NCBI GenBank assembly: GCA_020720115.1
Contig: DYPD01000001.1
Span: 3,044-67,043 of the forward strand
Direction: 5' to 3'
Length of the DNA stretch: 64,000 bases
Source of the DNA: Thiomargarita sp.
GTDB taxonomy: Bacteria; Pseudomonadota; Gammaproteobacteria; Beggiatoales; Beggiatoaceae
The notes beneath the pieces were generated by a model. That model ran no database searches, was not told where the DNA came from, and saw nothing but the letters and a program-made list of their open reading frames with translations. The stretch's first letter is position 1, and each line of letters begins with the position of its first letter. The translations under genes and the position numbers were made by a program. Shown here one piece after another: positions 25,081 to 60,451 of this stretch.

Positions 25081-25188
25081 GTTGAATACTCAGCAGGTGA
25101 TGGCACGATTTTTCTGATTATCTCTTACTCCAGAGGCTTAATACAAATCCATAAGCTTTTAAGCCCGGTTTCATGTTTTAGCACACTT

Positions 25189-42409: not shown

Positions 42410-43104
42410 TGCCAACTCCAGAGCAAATTCGCCAACAAATGGAAATGCTCACCGCAGACTTAGTGGGTTTAAGCCTTTGTGATCGCCAAAATTTTCCATC
42501 ATTGCGTGATCTTGGTCATGGTTGCTATGAAGTTGGCATTGGGGAACGAGGCAATGTGAGTTATGCGCTCAAGAATGTTCCTTATCACGACATATATGTG
42601 GAGTTAGATCGAACCCAAACTTACAATTTGCGAATGCTTGATGGCGCACTTATCCAAATGATGTATCGATTCAGAGATAACCAAGTTGAATCTCATCGTT
42701 TGGCATTTTTTCCATCTCCATTTTTGGATGAATTCCAAAATAACCCAGAAATATACCTAGAAGATGAAATTTATGCTGAAGTTATTATGAAGAATATCGT
42801 GCCATTTCCTCTTCGTTTTGATTTTGATTGCCGAGACGAGATTGTTGTCGAGGTAGAACACCCAAAATCCCACCTTACATTAGGACAATATCAGAATTGT
42901 AGAATTCCTGTAAGCGCACCTTTAACGCCTTACCACTTTCTCGGATTTATTCTAAGAAATTTCTATAATACTGCCTACCATACATTTTCTACTAAAATTT
43001 CTTCTTTCTCAGAAGTTTTTAATATATCTATAACTGATTCAGAGATGGAGTTGTTATATGTTCAGATTCCTACTCAAGCTAGGTTGCAAAGCCGAAAATC
43101 CTGA
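42409..43104 (+). CDS. DUF2290-like protein (helicase partner)
   Basis: 231 aa. The start overlaps the helicase stop (TAATG at 42407-42411). LRFDFDCRD...EVEHPKSHLTLGQYQNCRIPV resembles the HP.SHLH...R.P core I associate with DUF2290. Not verified by search. Confidence 0.5.
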   Translation: MPTPEQIRQQMEMLTADLVGLSLCDRQNFPSLRDLGHGCYEVGIGERGNVSYALKNVPYHDIYVELDRTQTYNLRMLDGALIQMMYRFRDNQVESHRLAFFPSPFLDEFQNNPEIYLEDEIYAEVIMKNIVPFPLRFDFDCRDEIVVEVEHPKSHLTLGQYQNCRIPVSAPLTPYHFLGFILRNFYNTAYHTFSTKISSFSEVFNISITDSEMELLYVQIPTQARLQSRKS

Positions 43105-48578: not shown

Positions 48579-49322
48579 ATGGCGGGTATTTCAAAAATTG
48601 AATGGACCGAACAAACTTGGAATCCAACAACGGGTTGCGACAAGATTTCAGCGGGCTGCAAGCATTGCTACGCTGAAATCATGGCAAAACGACTGCAAGC
48701 CATGAAAGCAAAGGGATATGACAACGGCTTCAAATTAAGCATTCTGCCTGAACGTCTTGCCCCCCCATTCAAACGTAAAAAACCGACGACTTTCTTTGTC
48801 AATTCCATGAGCGATTTGTTTCATCAAGGCATTCCTGATGAATACTTAGATCAGGTATTCAATACGATTCATCAAACACCGCAACACCGTTATCAGATAT
48901 TGACCAAACGTGCCGAGCGATTGCCCGTGTATTTCAAAGACCGCGCTATCCCACAGAACGTCTGGCTAGGCGTGACCGTTGAAAACATCAAAGAAGGCTT
49001 GCCGAGAATAGATTTTTTAAGAAAAGTGCCTGCCAGTATTCGCTTCTTATCAATTGAACCTTTGTTAGAAGACTTAGGCGAAGTTGATTTAACGGGCATT
49101 CACTGGGTTATTGTGGGCGGTGAGAGCGGTGCAAAAGCTAGAAAAATGGAGCAATCTTGGGTAGAACATACCAAAGCACAATGCGAAGCTCAAAAAGTAT
49201 CATTTTTCTTTAAGCAATGGGGAACTTGGGGGGCTGATGGCACGAAAAGAGACAAAAAGAAAAATGGGCGGTTATTGCAAGGAAAAGCCTGGGATGGGAT
49301 GCCTGTTCAAACGAGAGTTTAA
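48579..49322 (+). CDS. phage Gp37/Gp68-family protein (DUF5131, three-Cys motif)
   Basis: ISKIEWTEQTWNPTTGCDKISAGCKHCYA (C-x6-C-x2-C), WLGVTVEN, IHWVIVGGESG. Confidence 0.85.
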   Translation: MAGISKIEWTEQTWNPTTGCDKISAGCKHCYAEIMAKRLQAMKAKGYDNGFKLSILPERLAPPFKRKKPTTFFVNSMSDLFHQGIPDEYLDQVFNTIHQTPQHRYQILTKRAERLPVYFKDRAIPQNVWLGVTVENIKEGLPRIDFLRKVPASIRFLSIEPLLEDLGEVDLTGIHWVIVGGESGAKARKMEQSWVEHTKAQCEAQKVSFFFKQWGTWGADGTKRDKKKNGRLLQGKAWDGMPVQTRV

Positions 49323-49325
49323 GAT

Positions 49326-49777
49326 ATGCCTAAAAAAGAATATGACTGGGAAATTGGACAGCCACCACCTCCTAGCCTATATTGAACAATACATCAAAAC
49401 GCTCAATCAAAACCCATCAATACCCTCATTTAAACTATAGCCAAACTATATCATTTATACGACGCACTATGCAAAAACCTTCTAGGTTTCAAAAACCTAG
49501 AAGGTTTGGCTTCTAAAAATGATGTACTTTTGCTATAGCTGTTATTGATGCTTTTGCAGGGGGTGGCTTATATCAGGATGCTAATGGCTGTGAGCATCAT
49601 GGCTCTCCTGTCAAAATAATAAACGCCACTGAAAATGGGAAAAAGCTTGTTGAGTCAGGTAGAAAATTTCCCTTTACAGTTGATGCAAAATTGTTTTTTC
49701 TAGATGAGTTGGCTGAGGTATTTGCTCATGATATGTTCCTTGTTTTAACTGGCTTTTTGGTTTCTTGTTGTTTATAA
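49326..49777 (+). pseudogene. tcmP: decayed three-Cys-motif partner gene (tcmP-like) in three frames, 3' part missing
   Basis: Frame a 49326-49385: MPKKEYDWEIGQPPPPSLY*. Frame b to 49440: ..HHLLAYIEQYIKTLNQNPSIPSFKL*. Frame c 49523-49777: ..AIAVIDAFAGGGLYQDANGCEHHGSPVKII...KLFFLDE... The F.L/.IDAFAG.G/GSP pattern matches my memory of TcmP, the usual neighbour of Gp37/Gp68. Confidence 0.5.
49475..49507. repeat. perfect 15-bp-stem hairpin inside the tcmP remnant
   Basis: AAACCTTCTAGGTTT caa AAACCTAGAAGGTTT. It lies in a 98-bp segment bracketed by direct CTATAGC (49435-49441 and 49533-49539). Confidence 0.6.
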
Positions 49778-49785
49778 ATTTAACC

Positions 49786-49812
49786 AAAAAAATAAACTTG
49801 AGCAAGTTTATT
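49786..49812 (-). terminator. terminator-like hairpin at the 3' end of the five-gene operon
   Basis: The minus strand reads AATAAACTTG ct CAAGTTTATT followed by TTTTTGG. The stop codon of the 266-aa gene lies in the stem. The stem is AT-rich and therefore weak. Confidence 0.4.
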
Positions 49813-50608
49813 CATTGATTTTAAATTTCTCATTAACTTTGCGGCGGATTTTGTTGATTGGCGGCAAGCCATAGACTTGTCGAATTTCATCTACCAATTG
49901 TTCCATATAATCATCACATTCACGGATTCTCGTTTGATCCGTTGTAGTACCAACAATGTAAAGATCACGAAACTCAGTATGATGATAAAAAATGGCGCCG
50001 GCTTGCACATCAAACCCGATTTTAATCAGCCAGCCTTGTTCTAAATTTCTAAAACGCCGATTTAAGGAACTGACGATACCGTGCAAAGCAATACCAATAC
50101 GATCATAATGCTGCAATTGTTCTTCTGGTGTTTGTGGAAAGCGGCTTTGAATTTTCTCTTCATCTAAAATATGATCGGAAAAGTATTGTTGTTTATTATC
50201 AAATACACCTATGTAATGTAGTTTATTAAAAGCAAAATAGTTTTTACACTTGGGTCGCAACCCCTGTACATTCAAATGAGTATCTGGTAATTGTTTCAAT
50301 ACCGGGGTGCTGGTATCCAACCAATGCCCAATGATTTGCAGCAAAGAATACAGCAACCCGAAAATCGTCAGCACAAACAACATAATAAAAATTGCAGCAG
50401 TGATAGGATTAGCGACAATTACACCTTGTATATCATGCTGAAGTTCAGTAGAAATCAAAAAATACCAAAAAACAGTAAAGGCTAAGCATAGAGGTATAAT
50501 GGTTAGAGCTATACTTATCCGCAAAGGATAATCCCGTATCCAGCGATTTAAAACCTGTTTGAAATGGCTGGCAAAGTCGCTGAGTATTTGTCCAAATTCA
50601 GTTGCCAT
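49808..50608 (-). CDS. membrane protein of unknown function (at least 2 N-terminal TM helices plus a ~160-aa soluble C-domain), last gene of the STAND operon
   Basis: TM segments ISIALTIIPLCLAFTVFWYFLI and ITAAIFIMLFVLTIFGLLYSLLQII. The start is 2 nt after the WD40 gene stop. No motif I recognise. Confidence 0.7.
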   Translation of the reverse strand: MATEFGQILSDFASHFKQVLNRWIRDYPLRISIALTIIPLCLAFTVFWYFLISTELQHDIQGVIVANPITAAIFIMLFVLTIFGLLYSLLQIIGHWLDTSTPVLKQLPDTHLNVQGLRPKCKNYFAFNKLHYIGVFDNKQQYFSDHILDEEKIQSRFPQTPEEQLQHYDRIGIALHGIVSSLNRRFRNLEQGWLIKIGFDVQAGAIFYHHTEFRDLYIVGTTTDQTRIRECDDYMEQLVDEIRQVYGLPPINKIRRKVNEKFKINE

Positions 50609-50610
50609 GA

Positions 50611-53600
50611 TTATTTAACCCCAGTAATAGTTGGTTCAATCGGCTGCATGAGAATTTCTCGCGGTTCATTCATATCCAAAGTGTAAAACGCCAAGCGTTG
50701 GCTGGATGCCAAGGGCACTACCAGCCGGCAAAGTTTTTCTGAGGGCTGACAATGAATAGCGAAATCCCAATAGCGTTCTTTAGCGACAGTAGGCAAATGC
50801 AGCGTAAATAGAATCTCGGCAGGTTGTTTACTGAGGTCCCACAAACGCAATTTTGCTTCAGCATTCAGTGTCCACAAAGCATTGCCTTCCTGACTAAACT
50901 TCACTCTAAACACCTCTGCATCATCAAGCAAGCGCACGGGTTTTAATCCCTGATCTAAAGCGGCAAACGAATAAATATTTACATCGCCATTGAGCCCAGC
51001 CTCGACAAAATGCTTGCTATCAGGGCTAAAGTCCGCCCATAGTATTTCATTATTTGATTCAGGAAATGTGGGCAAGGGCACGGGTTGACTGCTTTGCAAT
51101 GCCCATAAGCGAGTCTGCCCGCGATTCCCTTGGTTATTACCGCTGCTTAATAAATAAGCCCCGCCAGAATTGAATGAAACCCTAAACAGATTTCCGCTAT
51201 GAGAGGGAAAAGAATCAATAGTTTCACCGTCGCTACTCTTTGTAATCCAACCCATAGAACCATTTGCGTTGGCAGTAACCAAATGCACATTGTCAGGCGC
51301 AAAAGCTACATCATACACAGCGCGCCAATCCGCCTGCATAAAGGTTTTTGGCTCAAGCAATTGCGCATCTGCCACTTGCCACAAAGTTGCCCCGTTATGC
51401 GCTCCAGCACTGAGCAACTGCTTGCCGTCATTACTGAAACCTAGATTAAAAATGCTCTTAATCTTTCCTGTGTTTGGACTTTCAGTGCAGCTTAATGGCA
51501 AACCGCCTTGATCATACAAACAAATATTACCTGCTTTAAAACCTACCGCCACCCTCTTGCCTTGCGGAGAAATAGCCACCGAGGTCGGCGTTCCATTGAG
51601 TTTAACTAAATATTGAAAGCCAGAATTGTCTGTATAGGGGGCGGGAATACGCCATTTTTTTATCTGCCCCTCATAACCCGCACTGTACACATAACTGCCG
51701 CCACGCGCTAAAGCCATTACATCCGCCGTATGCCCTTGTAACACATTCAGAGCACCGCCACCCGCTTCCACATCCCACACCCGAATGCTTTGATCCTGAC
51801 TACCGGACAACAGCAGAGTGCCCTCCTGATTAAATGCCAGCGCGTGAATTTTGCCTCTATGTCCACGAAAAATCTGTTTTTCCTGCTTTGACTCCAATTC
51901 CCAAATAGAAATCTTGTAATCATCATCCGCACTTGCCAGCAAGCGGTTATCCGGGCTGAATGCCAAGGCTCTTACCTTAGAAGTACGCGAAAAGCTATCA
52001 ACATACTTAAAATTTCCCGCTTCCAATTGCCATAGTTGCACAGCTTGCTTATCCAGAGAGGCAGCCGCCAGTAATTTTCCATCAGGGCTAAATGCCAATT
52101 GAATAATCCCGCCTCCAGTAATTATTGTTGTATCAGTTGCCTCTAACTTTCCCTCTTGCGTAATTCGCCACAGTTTAATCTCAGGTGCGATACCAGCCAC
52201 CGCCAACCAAGCACCATCAGGACTCATTGCCAAACTCAACAATTCATCCTCGGTATTGATTTCAACCGGTTCTTTGGCTTCTTTTAACCAGATTTGCCTC
52301 AACCAACCTTGCTTATCGGCTGTCACCAACCAGCGCCCCTGGGGTTCAAAGGCAATGGCGTTAATTTGATGATCAGTTTTTTGCAAAGCCAAAGGGAAAG
52401 GTTTGGCTGTTTCAGTATTAAAAATCACTAAAGCACCATTAGAACCACCAGCCGCCAACCATTGCCCATCCTGGCTTAAAGCGGAAGTACGCAAAGGAGT
52501 GCCTGGTGTCTCAAGCTTAAACGGAGTAGGAGAAATTTTTCGCATTTTCATGAAACCAGTTAAATAATCGCGTAAAAAACGCCTGCTCTCATCTATGCCT
52601 TGTTCCTTTTCTAATTTATAGCTTTCCTGCAAATAAACCTGTGCATTTTGGTAGTCATCAATATTCACTACCGCTTTTGCGCTGGTGAGTTTCGAGTCAA
52701 ACAATGCTTTTGAGCGCGTATGCAATAAATCTCTTTCTCTGATGGACTGTATCGTTTGTAAGGCAATAAGAATCAATAGAAAAGTACCAGCAAGCAAGGC
52801 AGCAAAGACTTTTATAAGACTCTGCATCCTTTGAGTTTTCATCGCTTGTGATTGTTGTAAACGTTCCGCTCTTTCTTTTTCTAACAATAGCTTTTGATTT
52901 TCAGCTTCCGCTGTTATTTTTTCTAATAATAAATTTTGATTATCAGTTAATAGTTGTTGATTCTTGACTTCGGCTTCTGCCCTGTCTTTTTCTAACAATA
53001 GTTTTTGATTTTCAGCTTCCGCCTTTTCTTTAGAAGCTTTGGCATCCTGATCCTGTTCTTGTAGCTTAAATATTTGAGCAAATAATTTATTATCAGACTC
53101 GGCTTTTTCTTTTTCTAACCTAATTTTTTCAGCTTCTTTTTGAGCTAATTTTAACTGAAATTCTTGACGGTAAGAATTATTAATTGCTTTTTCTTTTTCT
53201 AGTTTTTCATCCATATATTCTTTAGAAGAAAAAATAACTTTTCCTAGTTTGGATAAAAATAGTTGCTCACGTTTGTCAAGATGTTTTAATTTATCATTGG
53301 TCGTGAAATTTAGCGGCATCAGCTCCCGCCGAATATATTTTCTGAAACGACATAGAGTTACACTCTGATCTATAAGCGTATCCAAAGCAGAGGTTGCAGA
53401 GATGTCTTTTAGTTTTTCTTTTTGAATGTCTGTATAAACTTCAAATAAATCTCGCTCTTTTTCAGCAAATTTTTGCAAAAAATGCCATTGTCTGATAATA
53501 GCCTCATGCCGAAAAGAACATTGGCTTTTGTCATGTGAAAATCTTAAAATTCCCTTAAAGTGATCCATCACTGCTGCAACATGTGGTTTTTCTACCTCTA

Positions 53601-55083
53601 TGTCATTTTTTATTTCGTCGTCATCAAAAGCAATCTGCCGATATACAAACTCTCCTATATTTAGCTTATTTAATTCCTCAAGAGAAGTTGATTGATAAAA
53701 GTAGTAGTCTGCCGTGTCTTTTTTATAAAATTCTTGAACTCTGGTTCGCTGTTGTTTATGCACTGCAACCAATCGAGCAATTTCATCCAAAGAAACAGTG
53801 CCACCTAAGAAGCTAGTGTCAGGATCATTATCATAAACAGAAAAATCGTCCTTACATCTTGGAATGACCAAACGCCGAAATAATATTCCAGCAATCTCTT
53901 GAGCTATAGCAATGGAAAGCTTCTCACCGTTCTCTAATGACGGTTCAGCCTGGTAATCTCTATTTAGGCACTGATTAAAGATACCTTCTAATTCATCTTT
54001 TTTAGGATCGCTCTGATAGCAAAAAAAATGTAAGAATTTATTGTACTCATTTAAACTCAGGAGAATTTTTTTTGCACCTGAATCTATAGCTCTAGTTCTA
54101 GCTCTTTGTTTTTCCTGCTTAAATAATTCATGCAGAACATATTGTAACAATGATAATTTATCTGGTTCATACAAAAACTGTGTATTTTCCCCCTCTTTTT
54201 TATATAGCTTATCTAATAAATAATCTGAAAATTTATCATCAACCTGTATTTCATAATTGCGCAAATCTTCATATGATTTATCTATTCCACACAGCTTAGC
54301 TACTAGCTCTGGCTTTTGAATATTAACAATAGCCTGTTTAAGATTGTCTCTACTGATAAATGGCAAGTAATAAAAGCTGTTATTAATTTTATCAACTAAA
54401 CCAGGATAATTTGCGCAGGGTTGTAATTCCTCAGAACGTAATGCAATTAACACATAAATTTTATTAGGATAATATTTCTCTTTTGGAGAAACCGTATTTA
54501 GGATAAATTGAATAAATGATTGATTAGGATTATGTTCTTTTTCATCGCTTGGTTCAGCGGAGCCTATTTGCTTAACAACAGGGTTAACAAATAACTGCTC
54601 AAACTGATCTATCACCAGTAAAAAAGGTTTATCTATACCAAGCGTATTTTCCAAAAGACAATCGTGCAAACTATAAGAATCCACATCTTTTTTTATTTCT
54701 GATTTTATTTTTGAAAAATCAGTATTTTCCTTGACTAATGCTTTATTAACTAACTGATTTTTTAAGGTTAAAAACGGCTCTTCACTGCTGGATGCTCGGA
54801 TATAAACCAATGTCCAGTCTTTCTTTTCTGACCATACCTTGCTTTTTAATCCACCCATTAGCCCTGCGTATATCAATGAGCTTTTGCCAGAACTTGATTG
54901 CCCGATCAAAGCAACAAAATTTTCATAGGTTAAGCGGCTGCGTAGTTCTAATAACTCGTCATCACGACCAAAAAAAATGGAATGTTCTCTCATTTTGAAA
55001 TGACGGATACCAGGATAGAGATTACTGTCTGAACTCATGTGTTGATTACCCATATTCGATTTCACTGTGGTTTTATGTGGCAA
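50611..55083 (-). CDS. STAND-type P-loop NTPase - helical region - coiled coil - single TM - 14 WD40 repeats
   Basis: N-terminus YPGIRHFKMREHSIFFGRDDEL...VALIGQSSSGKSSLIYAGL (Walker A) and PFLLVIDQFEQLF (Walker B). Coiled coil with repeated AEAENQKLLLEK. TM LIKVFAALLAGTFLLILIALQTI (about aa 756-778). 14 units such as FSPDGKLLAAASLDKQAVQLWQL, FSPDNRLLASADDDYKISIWEL, FNQEGTLLLSGSQDQSIRVWDV. Confidence 0.85.
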   Translation of the reverse strand: MPHKTTVKSNMGNQHMSSDSNLYPGIRHFKMREHSIFFGRDDELLELRSRLTYENFVALIGQSSSGKSSLIYAGLMGGLKSKVWSEKKDWTLVYIRASSSEEPFLTLKNQLVNKALVKENTDFSKIKSEIKKDVDSYSLHDCLLENTLGIDKPFLLVIDQFEQLFVNPVVKQIGSAEPSDEKEHNPNQSFIQFILNTVSPKEKYYPNKIYVLIALRSEELQPCANYPGLVDKINNSFYYLPFISRDNLKQAIVNIQKPELVAKLCGIDKSYEDLRNYEIQVDDKFSDYLLDKLYKKEGENTQFLYEPDKLSLLQYVLHELFKQEKQRARTRAIDSGAKKILLSLNEYNKFLHFFCYQSDPKKDELEGIFNQCLNRDYQAEPSLENGEKLSIAIAQEIAGILFRRLVIPRCKDDFSVYDNDPDTSFLGGTVSLDEIARLVAVHKQQRTRVQEFYKKDTADYYFYQSTSLEELNKLNIGEFVYRQIAFDDDEIKNDIEVEKPHVAAVMDHFKGILRFSHDKSQCSFRHEAIIRQWHFLQKFAEKERDLFEVYTDIQKEKLKDISATSALDTLIDQSVTLCRFRKYIRRELMPLNFTTNDKLKHLDKREQLFLSKLGKVIFSSKEYMDEKLEKEKAINNSYRQEFQLKLAQKEAEKIRLEKEKAESDNKLFAQIFKLQEQDQDAKASKEKAEAENQKLLLEKDRAEAEVKNQQLLTDNQNLLLEKITAEAENQKLLLEKERAERLQQSQAMKTQRMQSLIKVFAALLAGTFLLILIALQTIQSIRERDLLHTRSKALFDSKLTSAKAVVNIDDYQNAQVYLQESYKLEKEQGIDESRRFLRDYLTGFMKMRKISPTPFKLETPGTPLRTSALSQDGQWLAAGGSNGALVIFNTETAKPFPLALQKTDHQINAIAFEPQGRWLVTADKQGWLRQIWLKEAKEPVEINTEDELLSLAMSPDGAWLAVAGIAPEIKLWRITQEGKLEATDTTIITGGGIIQLAFSPDGKLLAAASLDKQAVQLWQLEAGNFKYVDSFSRTSKVRALAFSPDNRLLASADDDYKISIWELESKQEKQIFRGHRGKIHALAFNQEGTLLLSGSQDQSIRVWDVEAGGGALNVLQGHTADVMALARGGSYVYSAGYEGQIKKWRIPAPYTDNSGFQYLVKLNGTPTSVAISPQGKRVAVGFKAGNICLYDQGGLPLSCTESPNTGKIKSIFNLGFSNDGKQLLSAGAHNGATLWQVADAQLLEPKTFMQADWRAVYDVAFAPDNVHLVTANANGSMGWITKSSDGETIDSFPSHSGNLFRVSFNSGGAYLLSSGNNQGNRGQTRLWALQSSQPVPLPTFPESNNEILWADFSPDSKHFVEAGLNGDVNIYSFAALDQGLKPVRLLDDAEVFRVKFSQEGNALWTLNAEAKLRLWDLSKQPAEILFTLHLPTVAKERYWDFAIHCQPSEKLCRLVVPLASSQRLAFYTLDMNEPREILMQPIEPTITGVK
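52875..53022. repeat. 37-nt direct repeat (1 mismatch) spaced 111 nt apart inside the coiled-coil coding region
   Basis: ctttttctaacaatagCttttgattttcagcttccgc (52875-52911) versus ctttttctaacaatagTttttgattttcagcttccgc (52986-53022). In frame, encoding AEAENQKLLLEK. Confidence 0.8.
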
Positions 55084-55110
55084 TGTTATTTGTAAAAATA
55101 TAACCTAGAT

Positions 55111-55674
55111 TTAAGGACACTGGTGTGTCCAATGACGATCCTTAGCCTGTCCTAGCCTGCAAAGAATCCCTTGTAGTATGTCATCTTCAACCAGTTCATC
55201 CTCCATGTCTTTATTATATTTATGTTGAGCATTGCCTGATTTCCTAATATATCGCCATCTAATATTAAATGAACATTCAAGATGTGGATGATGAGCGCAA
55301 ACATCATTTAGAATCTGAAAAAACACAATATTTCCAATTTTCTGCGTGAAAAAATCGGAGTCACATACTATGGAACTTGCCTCAGCATAGGAAAACCCAT
55401 TAGACAGTACAAAAAAGGCAAAATCCCAATTTTCGGGGTTTTTTTCTGGCTTAGGTTGTTTTTCTTGTTTTAAGCCAAAATCATCTTCTTGTGCCTGTAT
55501 ATTGGTATTTAATTTATCTATAAACTTGACAGAGTCGTTATCCAGTTTGAGATAAGAGGCTGCAAGTTCATCCTGTATTTTAGTAAGTAAATATGTAATT
55601 AAGGTTTTCTCCATTTTATTGTGCTCTTTTCTAGCAACATAAACATGCAGCAGCAAAGTTTTTTCACTGGACAT
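55111..55674 (-). CDS. hypothetical 187-aa protein in the STAND operon
   Basis: Start taken at ATG 55674 (MSSEKTLLLHVYVARKE...), preceded by GGTGGAG. The longer track ORF (to 55722) would overlap the upstream mini-gene. No motif I recognise. Confidence 0.6.
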   Translation of the reverse strand: MSSEKTLLLHVYVARKEHNKMEKTLITYLLTKIQDELAASYLKLDNDSVKFIDKLNTNIQAQEDDFGLKQEKQPKPEKNPENWDFAFFVLSNGFSYAEASSIVCDSDFFTQKIGNIVFFQILNDVCAHHPHLECSFNIRWRYIRKSGNAQHKYNKDMEDELVEDDILQGILCRLGQAKDRHWTHQCP

Positions 55675-55700
55675 ACAATCTCCACCTTGTATTTTTTTGT

Positions 55701-55871
55701 TTAGAGTTTTACCGTGCCACACCGCCCGTCTATTTCAGGGTTGCATTCTTGCGGTGGTGGTTTAGGCTGTTCTTTCTTTGGGTCTTCATTATTTTTATCT
55801 GCAGCATAAGCCCATAAACACAAGCCTACGTTTAAAAGCAAGTAAAGCAGTAATTTTTTGTGTATAGGCAT
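55701..55871 (-). CDS. unannotated 56-aa secreted mini-protein (signal peptide plus 33-aa Pro/Lys-rich mature part with C-x7-C)
   Basis: Hand translation: MPIHKKLLLYLLLNVGLCLWAYAADKNNEDPKKEQPKPPPQECNPEIDGRCGTVKL*. AGGAG lies 5 nt upstream of the ATG. It sits 11 bp after the upstream gene and 26 bp before the next. Below the track length cutoff. Confidence 0.5.
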   Translation of the reverse strand: MPIHKKLLLYLLLNVGLCLWAYAADKNNEDPKKEQPKPPPQECNPEIDGRCGTVKL

Positions 55872-55882
55872 GAAATCTCCTG

Positions 55883-57853
55883 CTAATTACCTGATGGCTT
55901 TCTTTCTATAAGCTGTTTTATGTAGGCACATAATATCTCGAATATATCCAGTGTTTTTGGATAAGAAGATATATCTTTAAAACTGGGTTGTTCGTTATCT
56001 TTAAAACTGGGTTGTTCGTTTATGAGATGCCAAAGCCTTTCTAACTCACCCCTAGTTTCCATAAGTTGAATAACCTTGGGTATTTGTTCCATTTTTGAGC
56101 CATTCAATAGCCCATCAGAAATATTAGATGAAAACTTGACAATTTCAAACTCTGCTTGAAGCAACCTGATTAAATCATCTTTGATTTTTTCCTTTACTAA
56201 ATCAGCGCTAGCTGTATCAAATTTAACAGGATAACTAAAAGTTAAACAATTTGTTAGTATAGATATATTTTCTCTTAATTCAAATATATTTGTAAAATTT
56301 GCTTCTCTTAATAGCTTTATTTGCTCATCTGAAAGAATATTTTCGCGGGAAGACTTCTCGACCAAAATAACACACTGCTCCTCTGATTTATTAGTCAAAA
56401 AATTAGCCAACTTGTACCATTCATCGTCTGCGTATGCTGTATCTAGCAGCACAATCAGAATTTGAGATTTCATTATAAAGCCATTTAGGACTTCCGTTTT
56501 AGTAAAAAAGCGAGGAATCTCTCTTTCCGAACAAATTAAATACTGCTTTATATTTTCCTGGTGTACATATTTTTTTGAGATTTGTGTTGGATTTTTTCTG
56601 AGTTGCTTTGCTAGCTTATCTGTAAATTCATTTACCCAATCAACATCTGACTCTGAAAAATCTACAAAAATATTGTAGATAAATTTTGAGCTATTATTAG
56701 AAGTATTCGATTCAAGAGTAACGGATGCCTCATTTTGTTTTGTCATCGCTAATAATTCCGGTTTCTTTATTTTGTAATTACATAACAATGGAAAAATCTC
56801 TTGTTTAGTATGGTTTCTTTCTGTAAGCGCAATTTTGTCATCATCAGGTCTCAGCCCATGTGTTTTATGCGCTATAGGATAGAAATAAATTTGCCCCTGT
56901 ATTTCATCTATGAATTCAATTTTTCCAATACTATAGCCGTGAGAACGCTTGCAATCTGTATTGTAATACTCTAAACCAAATAAAGAACGTCCAATCCAGG
57001 TACGATAAGGAAACGCACCATTTTCACTGATAACACGATAGCTTGGGTCGTGCATATGCCCGCACAAATGCGCTATGAAGCGCCCATCTAAATTGATTTC
57101 TCCGCGCAAATGCTGTTGCGAATCCCTGTCCAGCCAAGTTTGCGGATGATGGGTGAGCAACAGACAGGCTTGGTGTTGGCTTGCCCATGCGGGTCCATCT
57201 TCTGGACTATGGAAAGGTGCATGGAATTGTTTCGTGTGTAGTGCGAGTTTGCCTTCGTAATCGCCGTTTTGCAGTTGTAAAAAGGCGGTGTTGAGTCCGA
57301 AAATACCGAGTTTTGCGCCTTCTTTTTCGAGTGTGTAGGCAAAATCGCCAGGCAGCATTCCGAGTTTGAGGTCTTTGGGGATAAGCGGCTGATTGTTAAA
57401 CCAATCAGTGTAATTTCTAAAGGCTTTGTTGATGATTTTACGGTAGGGCGATTGCGGGTTTTCCCAAAATTCATCTTGGATTTCTCGGTCTTCTTGCCAT
57501 TGAAGCAAAAGTTTCAGTGAGGGGTCTTTGGCTTTGAGATTGGTGGGGGTGGGTCTGATGAGATCGTGGTTGCCAGGAACGGGAAGGAATTTGGGTTGGT
57601 TTTTGGGGTCAATGCGCTCAAAGGCTTGCCAAAGTGCGTCCAGTATGGCATTCAGCTTATTAAACTCTTCCGCTGTGCCTTTTTGCACCAGATCGCCGGT
57701 AAAGAGCACTAAATCCCAAGGTTGCCCACCGGTTTTTTCATAAAGTTTGGCAAGATGTTGAAACCAGCGTTCTCTGTAGGTGGGATACATCCAGTCTTGA
57801 TCGCGCATCCCGCAGTGCAGATCGGTTAAGTGTAGCCAGGTAAATTGTGCCAT
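55883..57853 (-). CDS. calcineurin-like metallophosphoesterase fused to a TIR-like module and a C-terminal helical tail
   Basis: MPE motifs LHLTDLHCG, FTGDLV, VPGNHDL, LLTHHP, CGHMHD. After about aa 395: FIYNIFVDFSESDVDWVNEFTDKLAKQL ... SQILIVLLDTAYADDEWYKLANFL, which resembles a TIR beta-A/alpha-A and the ..S.W..EL region. Confidence 0.75.
   Translation of the reverse strand: MAQFTWLHLTDLHCGMRDQDWMYPTYRERWFQHLAKLYEKTGGQPWDLVLFTGDLVQKGTAEEFNKLNAILDALWQAFERIDPKNQPKFLPVPGNHDLIRPTPTNLKAKDPSLKLLLQWQEDREIQDEFWENPQSPYRKIINKAFRNYTDWFNNQPLIPKDLKLGMLPGDFAYTLEKEGAKLGIFGLNTAFLQLQNGDYEGKLALHTKQFHAPFHSPEDGPAWASQHQACLLLTHHPQTWLDRDSQQHLRGEINLDGRFIAHLCGHMHDPSYRVISENGAFPYRTWIGRSLFGLEYYNTDCKRSHGYSIGKIEFIDEIQGQIYFYPIAHKTHGLRPDDDKIALTERNHTKQEIFPLLCNYKIKKPELLAMTKQNEASVTLESNTSNNSSKFIYNIFVDFSESDVDWVNEFTDKLAKQLRKNPTQISKKYVHQENIKQYLICSEREIPRFFTKTEVLNGFIMKSQILIVLLDTAYADDEWYKLANFLTNKSEEQCVILVEKSSRENILSDEQIKLLREANFTNIFELRENISILTNCLTFSYPVKFDTASADLVKEKIKDDLIRLLQAEFEIVKFSSNISDGLLNGSKMEQIPKVIQLMETRGELERLWHLINEQPSFKDNEQPSFKDISSYPKTLDIFEILCAYIKQLIERKPSGN
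55973..56020. repeat. perfect 24-bp tandem duplication within the tail of the MPE-TIR-like gene
   Basis: atctttaaaactgggttgttcgtt x2 (55973-55996 and 55997-56020). In frame, giving NEQPSFKD-NEQPSFKD. Confidence 0.9.
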
Positions 57854-57955
57854 GATGTGTGATTTTTAGTGTGGTTTTGTGAGAGGTAAGGCGGCATTCT
57901 TGCACAGTTATTCGGGCTTCTCAAGCCTGTAAAAGTAGCTTGTTTTGGCTGTTTT

Positions 57956-58462
57956 TTAAGAGATATTTTGGAGCACTATTTGCCAGTCGGTGCTGTTCAT
58001 GAGGAATTGCCAATTGAAAAATTCTTCTTCTAATAAGGGGAGGTGGGTGAATAAGGCTGTATAGTTGTTTTCTTCTGCTTGTTGTTCTAGGTAGTAGGCG
58101 AGTTCTCCTAAGCGGGTGGCGGCTATGCTACGGGCTTCGCCTTTTAAGGCGTGTAGTAGTTGCTTTAGTTGGTTGTGGGTGGGGTTGGATTCTTGGCTAA
58201 GGGCTTTGAGGGCTTGTAGGCGTTTTTGGGTGTCTTCGCTGAAAGCGGTTTTGAGTGCTTGTAATATGTCTGGGTTGCCGAGCACTAGCTGTTGTAGGCG
58301 CGGTATGTCGAGCACTGGAAGCTCTTTGAGGTTCAGTGGCAAGGCGCATTTGGCAGGTAATTGGCTGGCTGCTCTGGGACGGATAATAGGCGCATTTGAT
58401 GTGTAGGCTGTGGTGGTCATGTGGAGCATAATAGAATAGTCCTCTGGTTTGACATAGCGCAA
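57956..58462 (-). CDS. Hpt (histidine phosphotransfer) domain protein
   Basis: LKQLLHALKGEARSIAATRLGELAYYLEQ is the classic H-x-x-K-G Hpt helix. The start codon is uncertain. Confidence 0.7.
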   Translation of the reverse strand: MRYVKPEDYSIMLHMTTTAYTSNAPIIRPRAASQLPAKCALPLNLKELPVLDIPRLQQLVLGNPDILQALKTAFSEDTQKRLQALKALSQESNPTHNQLKQLLHALKGEARSIAATRLGELAYYLEQQAEENNYTALFTHLPLLEEEFFNWQFLMNSTDWQIVLQNIS

Positions 58463-58612
58463 AGCAGCCTGGTGAGTGAAGGAAGCGGGGGTGTTTTATG
58501 TTTTTTTAAGCAATGCTTGCACCATGCAAAAATAATATATAAATCAATGTCTTTTTGTGTTAAATTGAGTTTTTTGTGGGATTTGGGTGGCGATTTTTTG
58601 CTGTCCTTGCAA

Positions 58613-58634
58613 ATTGCAAAACATTTTGCAATTG
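58613..58634. promoter_or_regulatory. perfect palindrome, candidate operator upstream of the glycosylation-type cluster
   Basis: AATTGCAAAA ca TTTTGCAATT, 45 bp upstream of ATG 58679. Confidence 0.3.
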
Positions 58635-58678
58635 TTTAGGGCTTTTCATTTAAAAACAGGTTATTTGGTTTTAAGTTT

Positions 58679-60451
58679 ATGCGCTTTCTTAATGTTTTTA
58701 ATTTTCGTGTCTGGCATGGGTTGCTGATTTGCGCTGCTGTGTGGGGGTTGTATGGGCATACCTTGGATGTCCCCTTTTATATGGATGATTTCTCTTCTAT
58801 TCAGGAGAATCCTTTAATTTACAATTGGCAGGGGGTGGATGCTTTATGGCAATACGCGCCTGCTAGAATTGTTGGGTATTTGAGTTTTGCTTTGAATTAT
58901 GCTTTACATCAATTCAATACGGCTGGTTTTCATGTGGTGAATATTTGGCTGCATTGTTTGGTGGGAATGGCTTTGTATGCTTTGTTGGCGGGCTTGTTGC
59001 GCACGCCGCATGTGCGCAAGGCGGTTGAGACGCATCCGCTGTTGCTGTGGCTGCCGTTGGTGGCAACTTTGCTGTTTGTGCTGCATCCGCTACATATTCA
59101 GGCGGTGACTTACATTGTGCAGCGCCTCGCGGCGTTGGCGGCGTTGTTTTATATTGCGGCAATGGCGGCTTTTGTGCAGGCGCGGCTGGCGCAAGGGCGT
59201 ACCCGTTGGCTATGGGCAGTTGCTTGCGTGTTGCTGGGGGGATTGGGTTTGCTGACTAAGCAAAATACCGTGACTTTGCCGCTGGCTTTGCTGCTGCTGG
59301 AGGCGCTGTTTTTTAGCGAAAATCGGCAGCGTTTGTTGTTGTTGACGGGCGGCGTCTTTTTGGGTTTGTTCGGTTTGTGGGTGCTGCTGGCGTATGGTTT
59401 TCAATACCACCCTTTTTCGCTGGATGCTATGCAGGCGGCGACGCGGGAGACCACTACCATTTCGCGTGAGGATTATCTGGCAACGCAAATGACGGTGATC
59501 TGGACTTATATCCGCTTGTTTTTTCTGCCAATTGGGCTGCATATTGACTATGATTTAGTGCCGCTGACGGGGTTTGCTAATGTTACTGTGTTGAAGGCGC
59601 TGCTGGCGCACTTGGGCATTGTGGGGTTGGCGCTCTGGTCTGCACGGCGTCATCCGTTGCTGGCTTTTGCGCTCTTGTTTTATTACTTGGCGCACAGCGT
59701 GGAATCCAGCGTGATTCCCATCCGCGACGTGATTTTTGAACACCGCACCTATTTGCCTGACCTGGGTTTAGTGCTCTTGAGTGCTTGGTTTGTGCTTTTG
59801 ATTGTGCCGCTGTGGTTGCACTGTTACGCGATCCTTGCCTTGTTATTACTGACCTTTAGTGTACAAAGTTATGCCACTTGGCAACGCAATCAGCTTTGGC
59901 GCGATCCCATTGCTTTGTGGCGCGATAATGTTCAACAAGCGCCGAACAACCCACGCGGCTGGTCTATTTTGGGTAAGCATTATTTGCAAGCGCAGCGTCC
60001 CCTAGAAGGTATTGATGCTTTGCAGCGTTCTATGCGCTTGCAAAAAGCTTCTGGCAAAAACAGCATTAACACCATTGATGTCATTAATTTAATTGTAGGA
60101 TTGAAGTTGCTTAAACGCTATGAAGAAGCGTTAGAATTAACGCATAATGTGATGGAGCATCCAATGCAACCGATGCTAAAAGCAAAGTTTCTTATTAACC
60201 AGGGTAATATTTACTTTGAAATGCAGCGTTTGCCGGAAGCCGAAGCGGCGCTACGCAAAGCCATTGAAGTTGATCCCAACAGCATTATCGGACGCGCTAA
60301 CCTCGCCAGCTTGCTGGGTAACACCGGGCGTTTTGACGAAGCCGAAGCCCTGTATCTGGAAGTTTTGCGTATTGATCCCGATAGCCAAGTGACCCAAACC
60401 AATTTGGCAACTTTGCGTAAATTCCGTGAACAGCAACAGGGTGTCCAATAA
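58679..60451 (+). CDS. polytopic membrane protein with C-terminal TPR repeats (TMTC/PMT-like putative glycosyltransferase)
   Basis: About 11 TM helices. The N-terminal HTLDVPFYMDDFSSIQENPLI motif is common to TPR-fused GT-C-like proteins. The C-terminal TPR is AEAALRKAIEVDPNS...AEALYLEVLRIDPDS. Confidence 0.7.
   Translation: MRFLNVFNFRVWHGLLICAAVWGLYGHTLDVPFYMDDFSSIQENPLIYNWQGVDALWQYAPARIVGYLSFALNYALHQFNTAGFHVVNIWLHCLVGMALYALLAGLLRTPHVRKAVETHPLLLWLPLVATLLFVLHPLHIQAVTYIVQRLAALAALFYIAAMAAFVQARLAQGRTRWLWAVACVLLGGLGLLTKQNTVTLPLALLLLEALFFSENRQRLLLLTGGVFLGLFGLWVLLAYGFQYHPFSLDAMQAATRETTTISREDYLATQMTVIWTYIRLFFLPIGLHIDYDLVPLTGFANVTVLKALLAHLGIVGLALWSARRHPLLAFALLFYYLAHSVESSVIPIRDVIFEHRTYLPDLGLVLLSAWFVLLIVPLWLHCYAILALLLLTFSVQSYATWQRNQLWRDPIALWRDNVQQAPNNPRGWSILGKHYLQAQRPLEGIDALQRSMRLQKASGKNSINTIDVINLIVGLKLLKRYEEALELTHNVMEHPMQPMLKAKFLINQGNIYFEMQRLPEAEAALRKAIEVDPNSIIGRANLASLLGNTGRFDEAEALYLEVLRIDPDSQVTQTNLATLRKFREQQQGVQ

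What the first reader, a model, noticed from the sequence alone, without database searches (positions are those of the whole stretch)
50611..55083. STAND NTPase split by a transmembrane helix: WD40 propellers predicted on the periplasmic side
The Walker A/B NTPase, helical region and coiled coil (about aa 1-750) are followed by one strongly hydrophobic 23-residue segment, LIKVFAALLAGTFLLILIALQTI (DNA 52750-52818). About 710 residues follow, carrying 14 WD40-like blades, enough for two 7-bladed propellers. An ATP-dependent N-domain must be cytoplasmic. A single-pass N-in topology would therefore put the whole sensor outside the cytoplasm. Characterised bacterial STAND/NLR-like sensors detect cytoplasmic phage proteins, so an envelope-facing STAND receptor would be mechanistically unusual.
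Basis: inference. Interest (0 to 1): 0.7.

Follow-up and report, generated by a model that had tools for sequence, protein, structure and literature searches.

The report
Membrane-spanning STAND NTPase with periplasmic propellers
A Beggiatoa-like bacterium encodes an NLR-type ATPase switch that is threaded once through the inner membrane so that its two WD40 "sensor" propellers most likely sit in the periplasm; this turns out to be the normal design of a whole, named but uncharacterised, protein family rather than a one-off oddity.

Summary
The gene lies on the minus strand (50611-55053). It encodes an nSTAND1 P-loop NTPase, a 166-residue coiled coil, one strongly hydrophobic helix (aa 756-778, DNA 52750-52818) and two 7-bladed WD40 propellers.

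The periplasmic reading is supported, though not proven, by three lines of family evidence:
- The helix sits at the same place in 114/120 homologues and 65/71 GTDB species loci.
- Lys+Arg in its flanks is about 6.2 on the N side against 2.8 on the C side.
- In Bacteroidota and Acidobacteriota the next gene encodes a signal-peptide outer-membrane β-barrel.

The window protein's own flanking charge is neutral, and a few close relatives have cleanly lost the helix.

The window cassette has five genes on one strand:
- a Metallophos + TIR-like effector;
- a 56-aa secreted peptide;
- a 187-aa protein;
- the STAND protein;
- a 2TM-Roadblock protein.

Its core is syntenic in a distant metagenomic contig.

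It is a divergent member of a named family (Pfam PF20703). Periplasm-sensing STANDs have been predicted in passing in the literature. No text I could search describes the TM as a trait of the nSTAND1 clade, or its outer-membrane partners. None has been tested experimentally.

The parts
50611..55053 (-). nSTAND1-coiled coil-TM-2xWD40 propeller gene. It is 1480 aa from the ATG at 55053; the open frame extends to a TTG at 55083.
   Evidence: ORF list and translation. The identical 1480-aa protein P0001 is called on 4 public contigs. Pfam nSTAND1 plus WD40 families.
54100..55017 (-). nSTAND1 P-loop NTPase domain (aa 23-328). Walker A is at 54880-54903 and Walker B at 54598-54621.
   Evidence: PF20703 at E 4.7e-40. 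Motif coordinates. G/K/S of Walker A and D/Q/F/E of Walker B are invariant in alignment A3.
52819..53316 (-). Cytoplasmic coiled-coil stalk of about 166 residues (aa 590-755), with a 42-nt tandem duplication (AEAENQKLLLEK motif). It is an insertion relative to homologues.
   Evidence: Composition. Tandem repeat at 52864-52946. Insertion seen in alignment A3. The AF2 helix continues into the TM.
52750..52818 (-). Single transmembrane helix (aa 756-778).
   Evidence: KD 2.54; the only segment above 1.6. The only negative Hessa sum. The equivalent helix is present in 114/120 and 65/71 homologues.
52534..52749 (-). Juxtamembrane helical region on the predicted periplasmic side (aa 779-850), conserved in the ~1200-aa subfamily.
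   Evidence: Conserved motif LF(D/E)SQLT.A...AR..DY..A..IL.E. AF2 helices at model residues 40-109.
51622..52521 (-). WD40 propeller 1 (blades 1-7, about aa 855-1154).
   Evidence: Repeat HMM, AF2 model, Foldseek.
50674..51615 (-). WD40 propeller 2 (blades 8-14, about aa 1157-1470). Its last blade carries the conserved Cys pair HCQPSEKLCR (50725-50754).
   Evidence: Cys pair FRC-x4-7-CW conserved in the subfamily.
49808..50608 (-). Downstream partner of 266 aa: two TM helices (aa 33-51 and 72-90) plus a cytoplasmic Roadblock/LC7-fold domain. Its start lies 2 nt after the STAND stop codon.
   Evidence: Hydropathy. 142 representative homologues, none with a Pfam family. AF2 pLDDT 85.8. Foldseek finds Roadblock/MglB, TM-score 0.7-0.78 normalised to target. 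The closest homologue P0123 sits 6 nt downstream of another nSTAND1-TM-WD40 gene.
55111..55674 (-). 187-aa protein of unknown function immediately upstream of the STAND gene.
   Evidence: Gene call on L001. No Pfam, PADLOC or NCBIfam match. A 179-aa protein at the same position in L090 shares only a weak C-terminal motif.
55701..55871 (-). 56-aa ORF with an N-terminal signal-peptide-like segment and a CX7C motif; a possible small secreted peptide.
   Evidence: Gene call on L001. Sequence MPIHKKLLLYLLLNVGLCLWAYA/ADK.... The signal peptide is judged by eye only.
55883..57853 (-). 656-aa predicted effector: calcineurin-like metallophosphoesterase (aa 7-270) plus a degenerate TIR-like domain (about aa 390-502) plus a C-terminal region with no recognised domain.
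   Evidence: Pfam Metallophos at E 5e-13 and weak TIR. 41% identity through aa 502 to the Metallophos-TIR_2 protein P0311. More than 1000 homologues are fused to EAD1/2/7/8, bDLD1, TRADD-N, TIR, STAND NTPases, CHAT or caspase.

Best explanation
The gene encodes a divergent member of the nSTAND1 clade of STAND (NLR-like) NTPases. It is built as a bitopic inner-membrane receptor.

Predicted layout:
- Cytoplasm: the P-loop NTPase, its helical arm and a 166-residue coiled-coil stalk.
- Membrane: one helix crosses it.
- Periplasm: a short helical region and two 7-bladed WD40 propellers.

It is the switch and sensor of a same-strand cassette. The other members are a cytoplasmic metallophosphoesterase + TIR-like effector, a small secreted peptide, a 187-aa protein and a membrane-anchored Roadblock-fold protein.

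Proposed mechanism:
1. A ligand that appears in the periplasm binds the propellers. Candidates are a phage or competitor-derived protein, or an envelope-damage product.
2. The membrane separates the sensor from the NTPase. The Apaf-1/NLR type of auto-inhibition, in which the repeats clamp the NTPase, is therefore impossible.
3. The signal must instead pass by ligand-driven clustering or re-packing of the continuous stalk-TM helix. This would bring the cytoplasmic NTPase modules together for NTP-dependent oligomerisation.
4. Oligomerisation then licenses the nucleotide/NAD+-degrading effector. The Roadblock protein probably acts as a membrane-side regulator or scaffold of the NTPase.

Shown: domain content, single TM, family-wide TM conservation and charge bias, envelope partners in relatives, and synteny.
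Inferred: the topology of this particular protein, immune function, the ligand, the clustering mechanism and the roles of the partners.
For: Architecture.

Single TM with no return segment.

TM conserved between the NTPase and the sensor, whatever the sensor type: 114/120 homologues and 65/71 GTDB loci from Bacteroidota, Acidobacteriota, Proteobacteria, Planctomycetota, Verrucomicrobiota and others.

Positive-inside bias.

Exported or outer-membrane partners: signal-peptide outer-membrane β-barrel genes lie 0-30 nt downstream in 25 loci of two phyla, and involve three unrelated barrel families. A signal-peptide-like N-terminus occurs in 25/49 downstream ORFs against 1/64 upstream ORFs. An exported 342-aa protein overlaps the stop codon of the closest homologue, P0002.

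Long charged helical stalk after the TM in Bacteroidota members.

Conflict-system context: the upstream gene is TIR_2+DUF4062 in 54/64 loci. It is a caspase, TIR or Metallophos-TIR-DUF4062 protein in metagenomic relatives. DUF4062 is an experimentally shown NADase effector (papers read). The window's Metallophos domain belongs to the family fused to EADs, death-like domains and STANDs.

Cassette synteny in the distant locus L090.

Rosetta-stone fusion: the Roadblock-like domain is fused to a NACHT-like multi-TM NTPase in P0158.

Neighbourhood: PADLOC-listed candidate defence genes lie within 10 kb.
Against: - The window protein's own TM flanks carry equal K+R (3 against 3). The net-charge difference is only about +1 to +2 towards the N side. 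The same is true of its syntenic relative L090.
- Four members of the same ~1200-aa subfamily lack just the TM yet keep the juxtamembrane helices, the propellers and the conserved Cys pair. The sensor can therefore presumably also work in the cytoplasm.
- The window cassette has no outer-membrane partner.
- Its upstream proteins lack the DUF4062-like adaptor module that links effectors to nSTAND1 genes elsewhere.
- No EAD or PADLOC defence model matches.
- No topology predictor such as DeepTMHMM could be run, and nothing here is experimental.
Confidence: 0.6

Rival explanations
1. The topology is as predicted, but this is not an immune system. It would be a trans-envelope signalling or housekeeping device, for example envelope-stress sensing, control of an outer-membrane channel, or cell-cell communication in a filamentous bacterium. 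The NTPase would act as a regulated switch and the TIR/Metallophos proteins as signal generators or scaffolds rather than suicide effectors.
For: - The dedicated outer-membrane barrel partners, including TonB-receptor-like proteins with a Plug domain, resemble transport or signalling machinery.
- The three-gene unit is chromosomal and widespread across species genomes.
- An Hpt phosphorelay gene lies just upstream in the window.
- Roadblock domains normally regulate NTPases in polarity and signalling.
- No PADLOC model matches.
Against: - The upstream genes swap between caspase, TIR, DUF4062 and Metallophos modules. This is the hallmark of conflict systems.
- These same modules are fused to EADs, death-like domains, CHAT and other STANDs.
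- DUF4062 and TIR are demonstrated NADase effectors.
- Candidate defence genes lie nearby.
Confidence: 0.2
2. The hydrophobic helix tethers the protein to the cytoplasmic face of the membrane, or is buried in an oligomer, without translocating the C-terminus. The propellers would then stay cytoplasmic and sense cytoplasmic ligands at the membrane.
For: - TM-less relatives have an otherwise identical sensor.
- The flanking charge is neutral in the window protein and in L090.
- Canonical WD40 propellers and all characterised STAND sensors are cytoplasmic (literature read).
- The conserved Cys pair is kept in TM-less variants, so it is no evidence for an oxidising compartment.
Against: - A 21-23-residue uninterrupted hydrophobic helix bounded by charges is too long and too hydrophobic for an in-plane or re-entrant anchor.
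- With no second TM, both ends cannot be on the same side.
- The strong family-wide positive-inside asymmetry has no reason to exist for a peripheral anchor.
- Outer-membrane and secreted operon partners and the post-TM stalk in Bacteroidota members point to the periplasm.
Confidence: 0.1
3. The periplasmic propellers are not the ligand sensor. They would be an anchor or scaffold that binds peptidoglycan, an outer-membrane protein or a neighbouring cell. The triggering signal would be perceived elsewhere, for example as membrane perturbation sensed by the TM/stalk, or by the 187-aa or Roadblock partner in the cytoplasm.
For: - Conserved outer-membrane partners suggest a constitutive trans-envelope complex.
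- The blades are not recently amplified or hypervariable at DNA level.
- Conserved cytoplasmic partners exist.
Against: - Across the family the post-TM module is swapped between WD40, TPR and FGE/SUMF1 arrays. These are the same repertoire that serves as the ligand sensor in other STANDs.
- The number of propellers varies from one to three or more.
Confidence: 0.1

Closest known systems
nSTAND1 clade of STAND NTPases (Pfam PF20703; named by Kaur, Iyer, Burroughs & Aravind, eLife 2021, PMC8195603)
   Same: The NTPase domain matches the family model well above threshold. The C-terminus carries a superstructure-forming repeat array. A single TM sits between the two, as in about 92-95% of the relatives examined. 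The gene lies beside nucleotide/NAD+-targeting effector genes, in a multicellular-type bacterium.
   Different: It is only 24-34% identical to any relative and has several insertions, including a 166-aa cytoplasmic coiled coil. As a result the TM lies about 600 residues after Walker B instead of about 350. It lacks both the TIR-DUF4062 adaptor-bearing upstream gene and the outer-membrane downstream gene typical of the family, and has a 2TM-Roadblock partner instead. The paper's text describes nSTAND1 with FGS sensors and EADs, and does not discuss a TM.
Apaf-1 and bacterial Apaf-1-like AP-ATPase-WD40 proteins
   Same: A STAND NTPase followed by two tandem 7-bladed WD40 propellers. Foldseek TM-score to mouse Apaf-1 (3sfz) is 0.48.
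   Different: There is no NB-ARC match. No CARD or caspase is fused. A membrane lies between the NTPase and the propellers, so the propeller-on-NTPase auto-inhibition of Apaf-1 cannot apply.
Characterised antiviral STANDs (Avs1-7, bNACHT, and the 2026 survey 'Diverse bacterial pattern recognition receptors sense the core phage proteome')
   Same: The tripartite logic of effector, STAND NTPase and repeat sensor is shared. WD40 and FGE sensors are listed among defence-associated STANDs.
   Different: Those proteins are soluble, sense cytoplasmic phage proteins and usually carry the effector at the N-terminus. Here no PADLOC Avs or NACHT model matches, the effector is a separate gene, and the sensor is predicted to be extracytoplasmic.
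TM-containing bacterial NACHT proteins and the NACHT-TM-CLec DGR targets of Thiohalocapsa PB-PSB1 (Kibby et al. 2022 preprint, Supplementary Discussion; Doré et al. PNAS 2024)
   Same: These are the published predictions that some bacterial STANDs sense intramembrane or periplasmic signals.
   Different: They belong to a different NTPase clade (NACHT). They mostly have multi-TM regions, or C-type-lectin sensors diversified by DGRs. The prediction is made in one or two sentences, with no family-wide topology analysis, no outer-membrane partners and no WD40 sensors.
Bitopic bacterial receptors with a cytoplasmic enzyme, one TM and an extracytoplasmic repeat or propeller sensor (e.g. Ser/Thr kinases PknD and PkwA; my own knowledge, not checked here)
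   Same: The N-in/C-out type II layout is the same. Signalling across a single helix by ligand-induced dimerisation or clustering is the mode of action I propose here.
   Different: The cytoplasmic module is an oligomerising STAND NTPase, not a kinase. The output is a separate degradative effector, not phosphorylation.

Membership tests
nSTAND1 (PF20703) | Match to the family HMM above Pfam's gathering score | tested here: met
   138.8 bits against a cut-off of 27.1, E 4.7e-40. Only model positions 2-244 of 379 are covered, because of insertions.
nSTAND1 (PF20703) | Intact Walker A (GxxxxGKS) and Walker B (hhhhDQFEE) motifs | tested here: met
   GQSSSGKS at aa 61-68 and LLVIDQFE at aa 155-162. 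These residues are invariant columns in alignment A3.
nSTAND1 (PF20703) | C-terminal superstructure-forming repeats or FGS sensor | tested here: met
   14 WD40 blades in two propellers.
nSTAND1 (PF20703) | Single TM helix between the NTPase arm and the sensor. This is an empirical family trait found here, not part of the published definition. | tested here: met
   The window TM is aa 756-778. The trait is present in 114/120 and 65/71 relatives.
nSTAND1 two/three-gene unit as seen in GTDB genomes (TIR_2-DUF4062 protein / nSTAND1-TM-sensor / outer-membrane barrel) | Upstream gene ending in the DUF4062-like adaptor module | tested here: not met
   Profiles built from 5 and from 16 adaptor sequences find nothing in the window's 656-aa, 187-aa or 56-aa proteins (E 0.3 or worse; hhalign probability 0.1%).
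nSTAND1 two/three-gene unit as seen in GTDB genomes | Downstream signal-peptide outer-membrane β-barrel gene | tested here: not met
   The window's downstream gene is a 2TM-Roadblock protein. Barrels are found in 25 other loci.
EAD-coupled conflict systems (Kaur et al. 2020/2021) | Matching effector-associated or death-like domains on the NTPase and on effector proteins | tested here: not met
   No EAD, bDLD or TRADD-N Pfam hit in any cassette protein. The NTPase domain starts at residue 23, leaving no room for one. The Metallophos domain itself is homologous to EAD-fused ones.
Avs / bNACHT antiviral STANDs | Match to Avs or NACHT models; N-terminal fused effector | tested here: not met
   PADLOC gives only a WD40-driven HEAT-ARM_XIII hit. 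There is no NACHT or NB-ARC Pfam hit and no NCBIfam hit.
Bitopic N-in/C-out (type II) inner-membrane protein | Exactly one membrane-spanning segment | tested here: met
Bitopic N-in/C-out (type II) inner-membrane protein | Positive-inside charge asymmetry | tested here: inconclusive
   The window protein has 3 against 3 K+R. The family has 6.3 against 2.8 and 6.15 against 2.91.
Bitopic N-in/C-out (type II) inner-membrane protein | Experimentally mapped location of the C-terminal domain | not testable with these tools
   This needs PhoA/LacZ or sfGFP fusions, or protease accessibility. DeepTMHMM and Phobius were not available.
Roadblock/LC7 (the downstream 266-aa partner) | Roadblock fold (α-β-β-α-β-β-β-α) and sequence-family membership | tested here: inconclusive
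   The fold is met: Foldseek finds Roadblock and MglB, E 4e-5 to 1e-3, TM-score 0.7-0.78 normalised to target. No Pfam family matches the protein or 10 homologues.

The most novel reading that the evidence does not exclude
The nSTAND1 clade as a whole would be a class of trans-envelope NLR-like receptors. An oligomerising STAND NTPase in the cytoplasm would be wired through a single helix to repeat sensors in the periplasm. In Bacteroidota and Acidobacteriota it would work with a dedicated outer-membrane β-barrel partner. This would let the cell detect phage, bacteriocin or contact-dependent attack at the envelope before anything reaches the cytoplasm, and then fire NADase, caspase or phosphoesterase effectors. 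It would be the first NLR-type immune switch activated without direct sensor-NTPase contact. The window cassette (Metallophos-TIR-like, secreted peptide, 187 aa, STAND, 2TM-Roadblock) would be a distinct Beggiatoaceae-type variant of it.
Probability: 0.4. Interest if true: 0.85.

Novelty: new variant of a known kind. Interest (0 to 1): 0.6.

Why it matters
All experimentally characterised STAND/NLR switches, in bacteria, plants and animals, sense ligands in the compartment that holds the NTPase. They are kept off by the sensor folding back on the NTPase.

A STAND whose sensor lies across a membrane cannot use that mechanism. It would combine the logic of surface receptors with that of NLRs in one polypeptide.

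The family evidence gathered here has three parts: a conserved TM, a charge asymmetry, and outer-membrane partners. It turns a one-gene curiosity into a testable statement about hundreds of genomes, including culturable Bacteroidota such as Dyadobacter and Mucilaginibacter.

It also points to periplasmic surveillance as a largely unexplored layer of bacterial immunity or envelope signalling. For the window organism itself, it adds a five-gene candidate conflict cassette with two partners of unknown role.

Tried and rejected
1. I looked for the DUF4062-like adaptor, which ends the upstream proteins of other nSTAND1-TM loci, in the window's 656-, 187- and 56-aa proteins. Two HMMs and hhalign found nothing.

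2. I tested whether the conserved Cys pair in the last blade (FRC-x4-7-CW; HCQPSEKLCR in the window) marks a periplasmic disulfide. It is retained in TM-less relatives, so it does not discriminate.

3. I tested whether the N-terminal helical domain of the Bacteroidota outer-membrane partners is homologous to the STAND post-TM region. It is not (hhalign probability 0.1%).

4. The promoter/terminator scan of 49000-58800 gave counts no higher than shuffled sequence. The operon limits therefore rest only on gene spacing.

5. PADLOC, NCBIfam and Pfam on the 187-aa and 266-aa proteins gave no significant family.

6. Tandem Repeats Finder found only a 42-nt duplication in the coiled coil. There is no DNA-level repetition of WD40 blades, so no sign of recent blade amplification.

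7. The GTDB scan did not return the window's own genome. The taxon was inferred from AspRS: 78% identity to Ca. Venteria ishoeyi and 73-74% to Beggiatoa species.

8. BLAST of the window's 266-aa protein against the exported 342-aa downstream protein of the closest homologue found no similarity. The downstream slot is filled by unrelated proteins in different lineages.

9. I considered a gene fusion or assembly artefact and rejected it. The same 1480-aa product is called on four independent contigs (JGI, Logan and NCBI sources), and the architecture is family-wide.

Full report
**1. What is in the sequence**

The ORF at 50611-55083 is on the minus strand. Read from the TTG it has 1490 codons. 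The ATG at 55053 gives a 1480-aa product, and exactly that protein (P0001) has been called on four public contigs: JGI sample 3300000234 'TB_GS09_5', Logan run SRR1560848, and an NCBI record.

- It is the only stretch with a Kyte-Doolittle 19-mer mean above 1.6 (2.54; the runner-up is 1.53).
- It is the only one with a negative summed Hessa-scale energy (-1.6 against +6.5 or more; scale values from memory). No second hydrophobic segment could return the chain.
- Pfam places an nSTAND1 NTPase at aa 23-328 (E 4.7e-40) and WD40/β-propeller families from about aa 864 to the end.
- Walker A (GQSSSGKS) and Walker B (LLVIDQFE) are intact.
- Residues 590-755 are a Pro/Gly-free, E/K/Q/L-rich stretch with a 42-nt internal duplication. 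This is a coiled coil.
- A repeat HMM trained on the protein finds 12 blades. Two degenerate ones complete 14.
- AlphaFold2 on aa 740-1490, using a 32-sequence alignment, gives pLDDT 87.8 and pTM 0.81. It shows one unbroken helix from aa 741 to 806 running through the TM, two short helices, then about 54 β-strands.
- Foldseek's best PDB matches are double-propeller proteins: 2ymu, Apaf-1 and AIP1.

**2. The TM is a family trait, not an oddity**

I searched aa 1-850 against the 5.8-billion-protein collection. This returned 250 relatives, all 34% identical or less.

- Of the 120 listed, 114 have one strongly hydrophobic 19-23-mer, usually at aa 480-560. It sits between the NTPase arm and whatever follows: WD40, TPR, SUMF1/FGE or unannotated sequence.
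- The helix is conserved in position and hydrophobicity but not in sequence. That is the signature of a membrane span.
- An independent sample of 80 loci from GTDB species genomes covered Bacteroidota, Acidobacteriota, Alpha-, Beta- and Gammaproteobacteria, Planctomycetota, Verrucomicrobiota and Cyanobacteria, all diderm. It gave 65 of 71 sufficiently long ORFs with the helix, at a median of 348 residues after Walker B.
- In the window protein the helix lies about 600 residues after Walker B. This is because of several insertions, chiefly the coiled coil.

**3. Topology**

The NTPase needs cytoplasmic nucleotide. One span therefore implies N-in/C-out.

- *Positive-inside rule.* Across the 114 homologues, K+R in the 15 residues before the helix averages 6.3 against 2.8 after it, with N>C in 109 (Wilcoxon p 5e-20). 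The GTDB set gives 6.15 against 2.91, N>C in 57/65. The sequences are related, so the p-values overstate independence. The direction, however, is uniform across phyla.
- *Gene context.* In 22 loci of one BLAST cluster (the members I scanned with Pfam are Bacteroidota), the gene 0-30 nt downstream encodes a protein with a signal peptide and either an OMP_b-brl_2 barrel or a Plug/TonB-receptor-like barrel. In Acidobacteriota the slot holds a signal-peptide Phenol_MetA_deg-type barrel.
- *Signal peptides.* A signal-peptide-like N-terminus occurs in 25/49 downstream ORFs against 1/64 upstream ORFs. The closest homologue of the window protein (P0002, from a sister sample) is followed, with overlapping stop and start, by an exported 342-aa protein.
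- *Periplasmic stalk.* Bacteroidota members carry a charged helical stalk of about 130 residues after the TM, as expected for something that spans the periplasm.

Against this:
- The window protein's own flanks are charge-neutral (3 against 3). So are those of its syntenic relative.
- Four members of the same ~1200-aa subfamily (P0024, P0068, P0092, P0118) have a clean deletion of the TM alone.
- A conserved Cys pair in the last blade is kept in those TM-less forms, so it says nothing about compartment.

I put the N-in/C-out reading at about 0.8 for this protein.

**4. The cassette**

All genes are on the minus strand:
- 57853-55883: a 656-aa protein with a calcineurin-like phosphoesterase domain and a degenerate TIR-like domain.
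- 55871-55701: a 56-aa ORF with a signal-peptide-like start and a CX7C motif.
- 55674-55111: a 187-aa protein with no detectable family.
- The STAND gene itself.
- 50608-49808, starting 2 nt after the STAND stop: a 266-aa protein with two TM helices and a C-terminal domain.

The C-terminal domain of the 266-aa protein has 142 representative homologues but no Pfam family. Its AF2 model (pLDDT 85.8) matches Roadblock/LC7 and MglB. That domain also occurs fused to the C-terminus of a NACHT-like, multi-TM NTPase, P0158.

The cassette core is syntenic in a distant contig, L090. That contig carries, in order:
- a TIR-like fragment (E 9e-11 to the 656-aa protein);
- a 179-aa gene;
- an nSTAND1-TM-WD40 gene of 1384 aa (26-28% identity, TM at aa 645);
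- 6 nt later, a 2TM-Roadblock gene (31% identity).

**5. Function**

- The Metallophos domain has more than 1000 homologues at 40-55% identity. They are fused to EAD1/2/7/8, bDLD1, TRADD-N, TIR, NACHT/NB-ARC/AAA_35, SUMF1, CHAT or caspase. They occur in Nostoc, Microcoleus, Beggiatoa sp. PS and Desulfobacteraceae. This is the effector repertoire of the 'conflict systems of multicellular bacteria' of Kaur et al..
- In other nSTAND1-TM loci the immediately upstream gene is TIR_2+DUF4062 in 54 of 64 GTDB loci. Elsewhere it is a caspase, a TIR, or a Metallophos-TIR-DUF4062 protein. All end in a shared DUF4062-like adaptor module.
- Two 2026 preprints showed DUF4062 to be a TIR-like NADase effector.
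- The window's proteins lack that adaptor and any EAD. How the effector is coupled here is unknown.
- Within 10 kb lie a PADLOC 'DUF2290 + helicase' pair and a DUF5131 gene that matches PADLOC candidate models.
- The host is a Beggiatoaceae-like gammaproteobacterium.

I conclude that this is most likely a conflict or defence cassette (about 0.55-0.6). A non-immune envelope-signalling role is the main rival.

**6. Mechanism (inferred)**

The membrane separates the propellers from the NTPase. The Apaf-1/NLR auto-inhibition by sensor-NTPase contact cannot operate. The unbroken stalk-TM-juxtamembrane helix and the long coiled coil suggest a pre-formed dimer or trimer. Periplasmic ligand binding would cluster or re-pack it. 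That would drive NTP-dependent oligomerisation under the membrane and license the effector. The Roadblock protein is a plausible membrane-side regulator.

**7. What is known**

- nSTAND1 was named in Kaur et al. 2021 (PMC8195603). [quoted passage not shown] The main text does not mention a TM. Figures could not be read.
- Doré et al. 2024 predict a periplasmic C-type-lectin domain for one NACHT DGR target.
- The 2026 STAND survey treats sensing as intracellular.
- PADLOC 2.0 has no model for the TIR-DUF4062 / nSTAND1 / OMP trio.

The idea is therefore anticipated. The clade-wide topology, the outer-membrane partners and the Roadblock-type cassette were not found in the searchable literature, and nothing has been tested experimentally.

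**8. Verdict**

The protein is a divergent member of a named family in which the membrane span is the rule. Its cassette is a variant of that family's usual gene set. Interest is moderate to high (0.6): low as a single-gene curiosity, higher for the family-level implication.

Noticed in passing
window 55701-55871 (-): A 56-aa ORF lies between the effector gene and the 187-aa gene. It starts with a signal-peptide-like segment (MPIHKKLLLYLLLNVGLCLWAYA/AD) and has a CX7C motif. A comparable 73-aa signal-peptide ORF lies upstream in the P0009 locus (L009 2063-2284). It could be a secreted peptide belonging to the system.
   Followed up: partly
window 40241-43104 (+): A UvrD-like helicase (722 aa) and a DUF2290 protein (231 aa) overlap by one base. 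They match the PADLOC 'Helicase' model (1129.7 bits, E reported as 0) and 'DUF2290' model (E 5e-105) almost end to end. This is a candidate defence pair about 7 kb from the STAND cassette.
   Followed up: partly
window 48579-49322 (+): A DUF5131 (phage Gp37/Gp68-like) gene lies next to the cassette on the opposite strand. It matches PADLOC candidate models PDC-M30B and PDC-M41B at E ~1e-110.
   Followed up: no
window 57956-58429 (-): A stand-alone Hpt phosphotransfer-domain protein (157 aa) is encoded about 100 nt upstream of the Metallophos-TIR-like gene, on the same strand. Whether it belongs to the cassette is unknown.
   Followed up: no
proteins P0024, P0068, P0092, P0118 (homologues; alignment): Members of the same ~1200-aa nSTAND1-WD40 subfamily have lost exactly the TM helix. 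They keep the charged pre-TM helix, the juxtamembrane helices, both propellers and the Cys pair. This suggests that the sensor's compartment is toggled by gain or loss of one helix.
   Followed up: partly
loci L010-L089 (GTDB genomes), e.g. L018 4503-10133: There is a widespread, tightly spaced three-gene unit: a TIR_2-DUF4062 protein, an nSTAND1-TM-(stalk)-WD40 protein, and a signal-peptide outer-membrane β-barrel (OMP_b-brl_2, Plug/TonB-receptor-like, or Phenol_MetA_deg). It is absent from PADLOC 2.0, and I found no description of it in the searchable literature.
   Followed up: partly
L003 2854-4284, L007 4608-7004, L006 3688-4545, L009 3077-3616; proteins P0268, P0311, P0288 and others: A C-terminal module of about 180-280 residues (a DUF4062-like domain plus a second flavodoxin-like domain) is shared by caspase, TIR, Metallophos-TIR and otherwise unannotated small proteins encoded just upstream of nSTAND1-TM genes. 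It behaves like an effector-to-NTPase adaptor.
   Followed up: partly
protein P0158 (1371 aa): This is a NACHT-like NTPase with about eight predicted TM helices. It carries the same Roadblock-like domain as the window's 266-aa protein at its C-terminus. It is a fusion that links this domain family to membrane-embedded STAND NTPases.
   Followed up: no
window 21346-26970: A 1244-aa protein with seven Big_1 Ig-like repeats and an invasin D3 domain lies next to a secretin-domain protein. These are envelope and adhesion genes unrelated to the finding.
   Followed up: no
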